A stretch of 64,000 bases of DNA, taken from NCBI RefSeq assembly GCF_013167455.1, contig NZ_CP038328.1; one strand, 5' to 3'. A program made the position numbers and the translations under genes. This DNA is from Escherichia coli O157:H7. Its GTDB lineage: Bacteria > Pseudomonadota > Gammaproteobacteria > Enterobacterales > Enterobacteriaceae. The notes under the pieces were generated by a model. The model did no database searches. It saw only the letters and a list, made by a program, of their open reading frames with translations, and was not told where the DNA came from. Every line of letters begins with the position of its first letter. Within the stretch, counting starts at the first letter, position 1. Of the stretch, positions 43,192 to 43,311 are shown in pieces.

Positions 43192-43311
43192 ATGCCTGGC
43201 AGTTCCCTACTCTCGCATGGGGAGACCCCACACTACCATCGGCGCTACGGCGTTTCACTTCTGAGTTCGGCATGGGGTCAGGTGGGACCACCGCGCTAAG
43301 GCCGCCAGGCA
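43192..43311 (-). rRNA. rrfC: 5S ribosomal RNA
   Basis: 120 nt; reverse complement TGCCTGGCGGCCTTAGCGCGGTGGTCCCACCTGACCCCATGCCGAACTCAGAAGTGAAACGCCGTAGCGCCGATGG...GGAACTGCCAGGCAT. Confidence 0.95.

What the first reader, a model, noticed from the sequence alone, without database searches (positions are those of the whole stretch)
43192..43311. 5S rRNA carries a G-to-U difference at position 13 relative to the 5S sequence I recall
The reverse complement reads TGCCTGGCGGCCTTAGCGCGG, whereas my recollection of the canonical 5S is ...GGCCGTAGCGCGG. This may be ordinary inter-operon heterogeneity or my recollection may be imperfect.
Basis: partly seen in the sequence, partly recalled or inferred. 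Interest (0 to 1): 0.12.

Follow-up and report, generated by a model that had tools for sequence, protein, structure and literature searches.

The report
Common U13 allele of 5S rRNA
The single-base difference is real, but it is the commonest natural version of the E. coli 5S ribosomal RNA gene, sits in an unpaired and freely varying loop, and is ordinary strain-to-strain variation.

Summary
Window 43192-43311 (minus strand) is a complete 120-nt 5S rRNA gene, rrfC, at the end of the rrnC operon. It differs from E. coli K-12 MG1655 rrfC at one base, G13 to U (window 43299).

The window comes from the O157:H7 lineage. In an O157:H7 genome identical to the window across the rrfC and tRNA-cluster regions compared (PV15-279), all seven main 5S genes carry U13. 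The difference is therefore between strains, not between operons of this genome.

Exact-seed searches of 5,426 complete E. coli genomes found these forms among 43,429 5S copies:
- U13: 18,720 copies in 4,163 genomes, the most frequent form.
- K-12-type C12-G13: 14,161 copies.
- A12-G13: 4,698 copies.
- rrfF-type: 5,227 copies.

Position 13 lies in the unpaired three-way junction (loop A). In a sample of other Enterobacterales, all four bases occur at this position within an otherwise identical 58-nt stretch. Published in vivo probing reports G13 as one of the two most reactive guanines of 5S rRNA.

Verdict: already known, neutral polymorphism, very low interest. A chimeric proM/hisR tRNA pseudogene specific to O157:H7 was noticed elsewhere in the window.

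The parts
43192..43311 (-). 5S rRNA gene rrfC, 120 nt, U13 allele
   Evidence: Rfam RF00001 scores 93.2 bits, full model 1-120. It is identical to MG1655 rrfC except G13T.
43299..43299 (-). The variant base: nt 13 of 5S rRNA. It is U in the RNA, T on the minus strand and A on the plus strand. K-12 has G.
   Evidence: Pairwise alignment of the window rrnC region against MG1655. In the Rfam alignment, nt 12-15 fall in unpaired junction columns.
43404..46308 (-). 23S rRNA gene rrlC, upstream of the 5S gene in the same operon
   Evidence: Rfam RF02541 scores 2871 bits. Synteny with MG1655 rrlC.
46502..46577 (-). Spacer tRNA-Glu(UUC), the gltU equivalent
   Evidence: ARAGORN. MG1655 annotation.
46663..48204 (-). 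16S rRNA gene rrsC
   Evidence: Rfam RF00177 scores 1575.6 bits.
43063..43139 (-). Distal tRNA-Asp(GUC), the aspT equivalent. It helps identify the operon as rrnC.
   Evidence: ARAGORN. MG1655 and PV15-279 annotation.
42979..43054 (-). Distal tRNA-Trp(CCA), the trpT equivalent. It helps identify the operon as rrnC.
   Evidence: ARAGORN. MG1655 and PV15-279 annotation.

Best explanation
This is the rrfC 5S rRNA gene of an E. coli O157:H7-lineage chromosome. It carries the natural U13 allele, the most frequent 5S allele in the species. Nucleotide 13 lies in loop A, the unpaired three-way junction of 5S rRNA. At that site the base identity is under little or no constraint, so G, U and other bases segregate as effectively neutral variants. 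Within a genome, gene conversion among rrn operons (concerted evolution) spreads one variant across copies. That is why O157:H7 has U13 in all seven main 5S genes while K-12 has none. The RNA should fold, be processed and function in the 50S subunit exactly like the K-12 form. Shown here: the base difference, its frequency, its distribution among operons, its unpaired position in the family model, and its variability across Enterobacterales. Inferred: neutrality and the gene-conversion mechanism.
For: - Single difference G13T against MG1655 rrfC.
- The window is 100% identical over 24.9 kb to O157:H7 genomes.
- In O157:H7 PV15-279, seven of eight rrf genes are U13 and identical to the window. 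In MG1655, none of eight is U13.
- Exact-seed 30-mer counts in 5,426 complete genomes: U13 18,720 places in 4,163 genomes; C12G13 14,161; A12G13 4,698; rrfF-type 5,227. These account for 42,806 of 43,429 5S places.
- At the rrfC locus itself, in 10 evenly sampled non-O157 genomes: U13 4, C12G13 4, A12G13 2.
- Rfam places nt 12-15 in unpaired junction columns. The score is 93.2 bits for U13 and 92.8 bits for G13.
- The energy of the Rfam-consensus fold is identical, -23.5 kcal/mol, for U13, G13 and A12G13.
- In 125 5S genes of other Enterobacterales identical over the other 57 positions of nt 2-60, nt 12-13 read UG 44, AC 39, UU 26, AA 6, CG 5, AG 4, GG 1. All four bases therefore occur at nt 13.
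- PMC5733565 reports G13 (loop A) as one of the two most strongly glyoxal-modified guanines of E. coli 5S rRNA in vivo, which implies a free Watson-Crick face.
- G13U is one of 73 differences over about 7 kb between this rrnC region and K-12, which are 99.0% identical.
Against: - Neutrality was not measured. No fitness or ribosome-function data for U13 versus G13 were found.
- In an unconstrained thermodynamic ensemble, nt 13 is predicted paired with probability 0.66 for G13 and 0.28 for U13. A small effect on misfolding of the free RNA cannot be excluded.
- Gene conversion is inferred from the within-genome uniformity and the between-strain difference. It was not demonstrated by tract mapping.
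- The 30-mer counts include 5 nt of upstream spacer, so they are lower bounds.
Confidence: 0.93

Rival explanations
1. The U13 is rrfC-specific inter-operon heterogeneity. Under this reading, this genome mixes G13 and U13 5S RNAs.
For: E. coli genomes do show inter-operon 5S heterogeneity. MG1655 copies differ at positions 3, 12, 92 and 117 (PMC6312700 states 4 variable 5S positions). Many genomes carry both U13 and G13 copies: the median number of U13 places per carrying genome is 5, out of about 8 copies.
Against: In O157:H7 PV15-279, which is 100% identical to the window across the regions compared, rrfA, B, C, D, E, G and H all carry U13. The only different copy is the divergent rrfF. The other O157:H7 rows listed also show 7 U13 places.
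Confidence: 0.03
2. U13 is a functionally specialised 5S variant. Under this reading it was selected in some lineages because it alters 5S folding, ribosome assembly or translation.
For: G13 is predicted to be more often mispaired than U13 in the unconstrained ensemble: 0.66 versus 0.28, through pairing of nt 11-14 with nt 18-21. U13 has reached all main operons in O157:H7.
Against: The position is unpaired in the family model, and the change is neutral in both score and energy. All four bases occur there in related species. The three alleles occupy the same locus in different strains with no obvious pattern. Fixation across operons is expected from gene conversion alone.
Confidence: 0.03
3. 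The difference is a sequencing or assembly error in the window.
For: None beyond the fact that it is a single base.
Against: The identical 120-mer is found at 100% identity in listed genomes of several lineages. The U13-specific 30-mer occurs at 18,720 places in 4,163 independent complete genomes.
Confidence: 0.005

Closest known systems
E. coli K-12 MG1655 rrfC (b3759) and the identical rrfH, rrfG and rrfD
   Same: Same locus (rrnC, followed by aspT-trpT and hdfR), same length, and 119 of 120 bases identical.
   Different: nt 13 is G in K-12 and U here. No MG1655 5S gene has U13.
5S rRNA genes of E. coli O157:H7 genomes (e.g. PV15-279 rrfA/B/C/D/E/G/H)
   Same: All seven main copies are 120 of 120 bases identical to the window, including U13. 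The flanks are also identical.
   Different: Nothing. The window gene is this allele.
Classical E. coli 5S RNA sequence heterogeneity (Brownlee, Sanger and Barrell, 1967-68, strain MRE600)
   Same: From my own memory, not verified here: the original RNA sequencing reported two forms differing by G or U at position 13. That would be this same polymorphism.
   Different: I could not confirm this. The papers are not in the searchable library, and the MRE600 genome accession I tried is not in the collection.
Rfam RF00001 (5S rRNA family)
   Same: Full-length match well above the gathering score, with the three-helix-junction consensus structure.
   Different: The family consensus at this junction column is A. 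E. coli alleles have G or U, and neither is penalised appreciably: 92.8 and 93.2 bits.

Membership tests
Bacterial 5S rRNA (Rfam RF00001) | Match to the family covariance model above the curated gathering score, over the full model | tested here: met
   93.2 bits against a gathering score of 38, model positions 1-120 of 120, E = 7.5e-19.
Bacterial 5S rRNA (Rfam RF00001) | Three-way-junction secondary structure: helix I closing the junction (loop A), with two arms | tested here: met
   The cmscan alignment shows helix I (nt 3-11 with 109-117), the junction columns and both arms. nt 13 falls in a junction column. A dot-bracket structure was derived and evaluated.
Bacterial 5S rRNA (Rfam RF00001) | Location at the 3' end of an rrn operon, downstream of the 23S rRNA | tested here: met
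   The 23S gene is at 43404-46308 and the 16S gene at 46663-48204, on the same strand and directly upstream.
Bacterial 5S rRNA (Rfam RF00001) | Incorporation into the 50S subunit with proteins L5, L18 and L25 | not testable with these tools
   This needs biochemical or structural data for the U13 form.
E. coli rrnC operon | tRNA-Glu in the 16S-23S spacer, distal tRNA-Asp and tRNA-Trp, and flanking yieP and hdfR | tested here: met
   tRNA-Glu, tRNA-Asp and tRNA-Trp were found by ARAGORN. The same order is annotated in MG1655 and in O157:H7 PV15-279, with yieP and hdfR flanking. The window aligns end to end with the MG1655 rrnC region at 99.0% identity.
Known E. coli 5S allele 'C12-U13' | Exact sequence identity to 5S genes annotated in other complete E. 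coli genomes | tested here: met
   120 of 120 identical matches annotated 'rrf: 5S ribosomal RNA'. The U13 30-mer occurs at 18,720 places in 4,163 of 5,426 genomes.

The most novel reading that the evidence does not exclude
The G13/U13 polymorphism is not strictly neutral. U13 removes a potential mispairing of nt 11-14 with nt 18-21. This could slightly favour the native fold of free 5S RNA during 50S assembly and so help the allele spread through the rrn operons of lineages such as O157:H7.
Probability: 0.03. Interest if true: 0.3.

Novelty: already known. Interest (0 to 1): 0.03.

Why it matters
It matters very little. The result shows that the textbook (K-12) 5S sequence is not the species consensus. 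The U13 form is the plurality allele among complete E. coli genomes, and nt 12-13 form a small hypervariable spot in an otherwise invariant part of the enterobacterial 5S rRNA. This is useful as a caution for anyone calling 'variants' against K-12. It is also a tidy example of concerted evolution among rrn operons. It opens no new biological question.

Tried and rejected
- I tried to confirm the historical report of G/U heterogeneity at position 13 in strain MRE600. Three literature searches returned nothing relevant, and a fourth on rrf gene names added nothing. The MRE600 accession I tried (NZ_CP014197.1) is not in the collection. That link therefore rests on memory only.
- The unconstrained RNAfold minimum-energy structures do not reproduce the native 5S fold. 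I did not use them to judge the variant. I evaluated the Rfam-consensus structure instead.
It happened not to include E. coli, Shigella or Salmonella. It shows that nt 12-13 vary in Enterobacterales, but it does not give the ancestral state, and the exact C12-U13 combination was not in that sample.
- Two tool calls failed on a minimum term length.
- I considered and rejected sequencing error and an rrfC-specific difference within the genome.

Full report
**What is at the coordinates.** The reverse complement of window 43192-43311 reads TGCCTGGCGGCCTTAGCGCGGTGG...GCCAGGCAT. It matches the Rfam 5S rRNA model over its full length, at 93.2 bits against a gathering score of 38. On the same strand lie a 16S gene (46663-48204), tRNA-Glu (46502-46577) and a 23S gene (43404-46308) upstream, and tRNA-Asp (43063-43139) and tRNA-Trp (42979-43054) downstream. 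This is the gene order of the E. coli rrnC operon as annotated in MG1655: rrsC-gltU-rrlC-rrfC-aspT-trpT, between yieP and hdfR.

**The observation.** I compared the gene base by base with MG1655 rrfC (L001 5701-5820). There is exactly one difference, G13 in K-12 versus T here, at window coordinate 43299.

**Where the window comes from.** A 24.9-kb stretch of the window is 100% identical to many O157:H7 chromosomes, including FRIK1989, 86-24 and ATCC 43888. Most other E. coli fall at 95-99% identity. Across about 7 kb of the rrnC region, the window and K-12 differ at 73 alignment positions and are 99.0% identical: 15 differences in the 16S gene, 32 in the 23S gene and 1 in the 5S gene. G13U is therefore one of many ordinary strain differences.

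**All 5S copies in two genomes.** I collected all eight rrf genes of MG1655 and of O157:H7 PV15-279. PV15-279 is 100% identical to the window across the rrfC region and the tRNA cluster.
- MG1655 has no U13 copy. Four copies are C12-G13 (rrfC, H, G, D). Four are A12-G13 (rrfA, B, E, F), with an extra C92U in rrfA and C3U/G117A in rrfF. This agrees with the four variable 5S positions reported for K-12 in PMC6312700.
- In O157:H7, rrfA, B, C, D, E, G and H are all identical to the window gene and carry U13. Only the extra copy rrfF differs (C3U, C12A, U87A, G117A, with G13).

In the source lineage, U13 is therefore not an oddity of rrfC or an inter-operon difference. It is the uniform allele of the seven main operons. 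Uniformity within a genome combined with differences between strains is the pattern expected from gene conversion among rrn operons. That mechanism is inferred, not shown.

**Frequency in the species.** I used 30-nt queries centred on nt 12-13, so that every 28-nt megablast seed must contain the variable bases. The results among 5,426 complete genomes were:

| 5S form | Places | Genomes |
|---|---|---|
| U13 (C12-U13) | 18,720 | 4,163 |
| C12-G13 (K-12 type) | 14,161 | 4,293 |
| A12-G13 | 4,698 | 1,383 |
| rrfF-type | 5,227 | 5,212 |

Together these account for 42,806 of the 43,429 5S places found with the whole gene. U13 is the plurality allele, at about 43% of all copies. The queries include 5 nt of upstream spacer, so the counts are lower bounds.

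At the rrfC locus itself (identified by the aspT-trpT-hdfR flank), I examined ten genomes taken at even steps down the ranking. Four had U13, four had C12-G13 and two had A12-G13. All three alleles occupy this locus in different strains.

**Structural context.**
- In the Rfam alignment, nt 12-15 (CUUA here) occupy the unpaired junction columns between helix I and the next helix, which is loop A. The family consensus there is CAUA.
- The U13 gene scores 93.2 bits and the K-12 G13 gene 92.8 bits.
- The energy of the Rfam-consensus structure is the same, -23.5 kcal/mol, for U13, G13 and A12-G13. These bases lie inside the multiloop, away from the helix ends.
- PMC5733565 reports that G13 (loop A) and G41 (loop C) are the two most intensely glyoxal-modified guanines of E. 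coli 5S rRNA in vivo. This implies an unpaired Watson-Crick face.
- One computed difference remains. In an unconstrained ensemble, nt 13 is predicted paired with probability 0.66 for G and 0.28 for U, through a non-native pairing of nt 11-14 with nt 18-21. I treat this as a weak hint only, because the unconstrained prediction does not reproduce the native fold.

**Wider phylogenetic context.** I scanned one genome per species for 5S nt 2-60 with nt 12-13 left free. Within this otherwise identical stretch, nt 12-13 read UG 44, AC 39, UU 26, AA 6, CG 5, AG 4 and GG 1. All four bases therefore occur at nt 13. This two-base spot is hypervariable while its surroundings are invariant, which is what an unconstrained junction position would show. 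The sample is truncated and not random. It contains neither E. coli nor the exact C12-U13 combination.

**Explanation and rivals.** The best-supported reading (confidence about 0.93) is a common, effectively neutral polymorphism at an unpaired loop-A nucleotide. The allele is probably shared across the main operons of O157:H7 through gene conversion.
- Sequencing error is excluded.
- An rrfC-specific difference within the genome is contradicted.
- A functionally specialised variant cannot be formally excluded. Its only support is the weak ensemble-pairing difference.

**Comparison with the known.** The gene is a member of RF00001 and of the rrnC operon on every feature testable here. Its sequence is identical to genes already annotated as 5S rRNA in many complete genomes. 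From memory, the original RNA sequencing of E. coli 5S RNA reported G/U heterogeneity at position 13 in strain MRE600. I could not verify this with the tools.

**Verdict.** The finding is already known and of very low interest (0.03).

**Noticed in passing.** The tRNA cluster at window 7012-7674 has six genes where K-12 has four.
- The extra 'tRNA-Pro' at 7240-7314 is a chimera. Its nt 1-63 are identical to proM. They are followed by the 3' end of hisR and the hisR-leuT spacer, joined inside the shared T-loop box GGTTCGAATCC.
- Its acceptor stem cannot form. It scores 34.6 bits against 65.8 bits for proM, and NCBI's PGAP annotation pipeline leaves it unannotated.
- The junction 30-mer occurs in 287 of 5,426 genomes, and all listed rows are O157:H7-type. 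This looks like an unequal-crossover duplication that marks the O157:H7 lineage.

Noticed in passing
window 7131-7443, chimeric gene at 7240-7314 (minus strand): The argX-hisR-leuT-proM tRNA cluster carries a tandem duplication, giving Arg-His-Leu-[Pro/His chimera]-Leu-Pro. The chimera is proM nt 1-63 fused, inside the shared T-loop box GGTTCGAATCC, to the 3' end of hisR plus the hisR-leuT spacer. Its acceptor stem cannot pair. ARAGORN calls it tRNA-Pro, Rfam gives it 34.6 bits, and PGAP leaves it unannotated. The junction 30-mer is present in 287 of 5,426 complete E. coli genomes, and all listed rows are O157:H7-type.
   Followed up: yes
5S rRNA nt 12-13 (window 43299-43300); loci L015-L134: In 125 5S genes of other Enterobacterales identical over the other 57 positions of nt 2-60, the dinucleotide at nt 12-13 reads UG 44, AC 39, UU 26, AA 6, CG 5, AG 4, GG 1. 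This is a two-base hypervariable spot in an otherwise invariant stretch.
   Followed up: partly
L004 324-443 (MG1655 rrfF); L012 1054-1173 (O157:H7 rrfF): The extra 5S gene rrfF of rrnD is a distinct, conserved allele found once per genome in 5,212 of 5,426 genomes. It carries a compensatory helix I change, C3U with G117A, together with A12. The O157:H7 copy has an additional U87A relative to K-12.
   Followed up: partly
window 43322, 43363, 43391 (23S-5S spacer); clusters at 48112-48126 and 47182-47203 (16S) and 45757-45766, 44573-44583, 43506-43514 (23S): The differences between this rrnC region and K-12 rrnC are strongly clustered into short patches rather than spread evenly. In total there are 73 differences, 15 in the 16S gene and 32 in the 23S gene. 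This pattern is typical of variable helices and of gene-conversion patches among rrn operons. I did not analyse it further.
   Followed up: no
window 43192-43311: In an unconstrained thermodynamic ensemble, nt 13 is predicted paired with probability 0.66 for G13 and 0.28 for U13. The G13 minimum-energy fold pairs nt 11-14 with nt 18-21, which is non-native. This could relate to alternative conformers of free 5S RNA. It was not tested.
   Followed up: partly
window 3176-3382, 24259-24358, 39471-39760, 46316-46424 (all minus strand): The Rfam scan also found other known elements: GlmZ sRNA (218 bits), the TrxA 5' UTR thermometer (78.8 bits), 'Rev39 5' UTR' (156.5 bits) and StyR-44 just upstream of the 23S gene (122.9 bits). 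All score above their gathering thresholds, and nothing unusual was noted.
   Followed up: no
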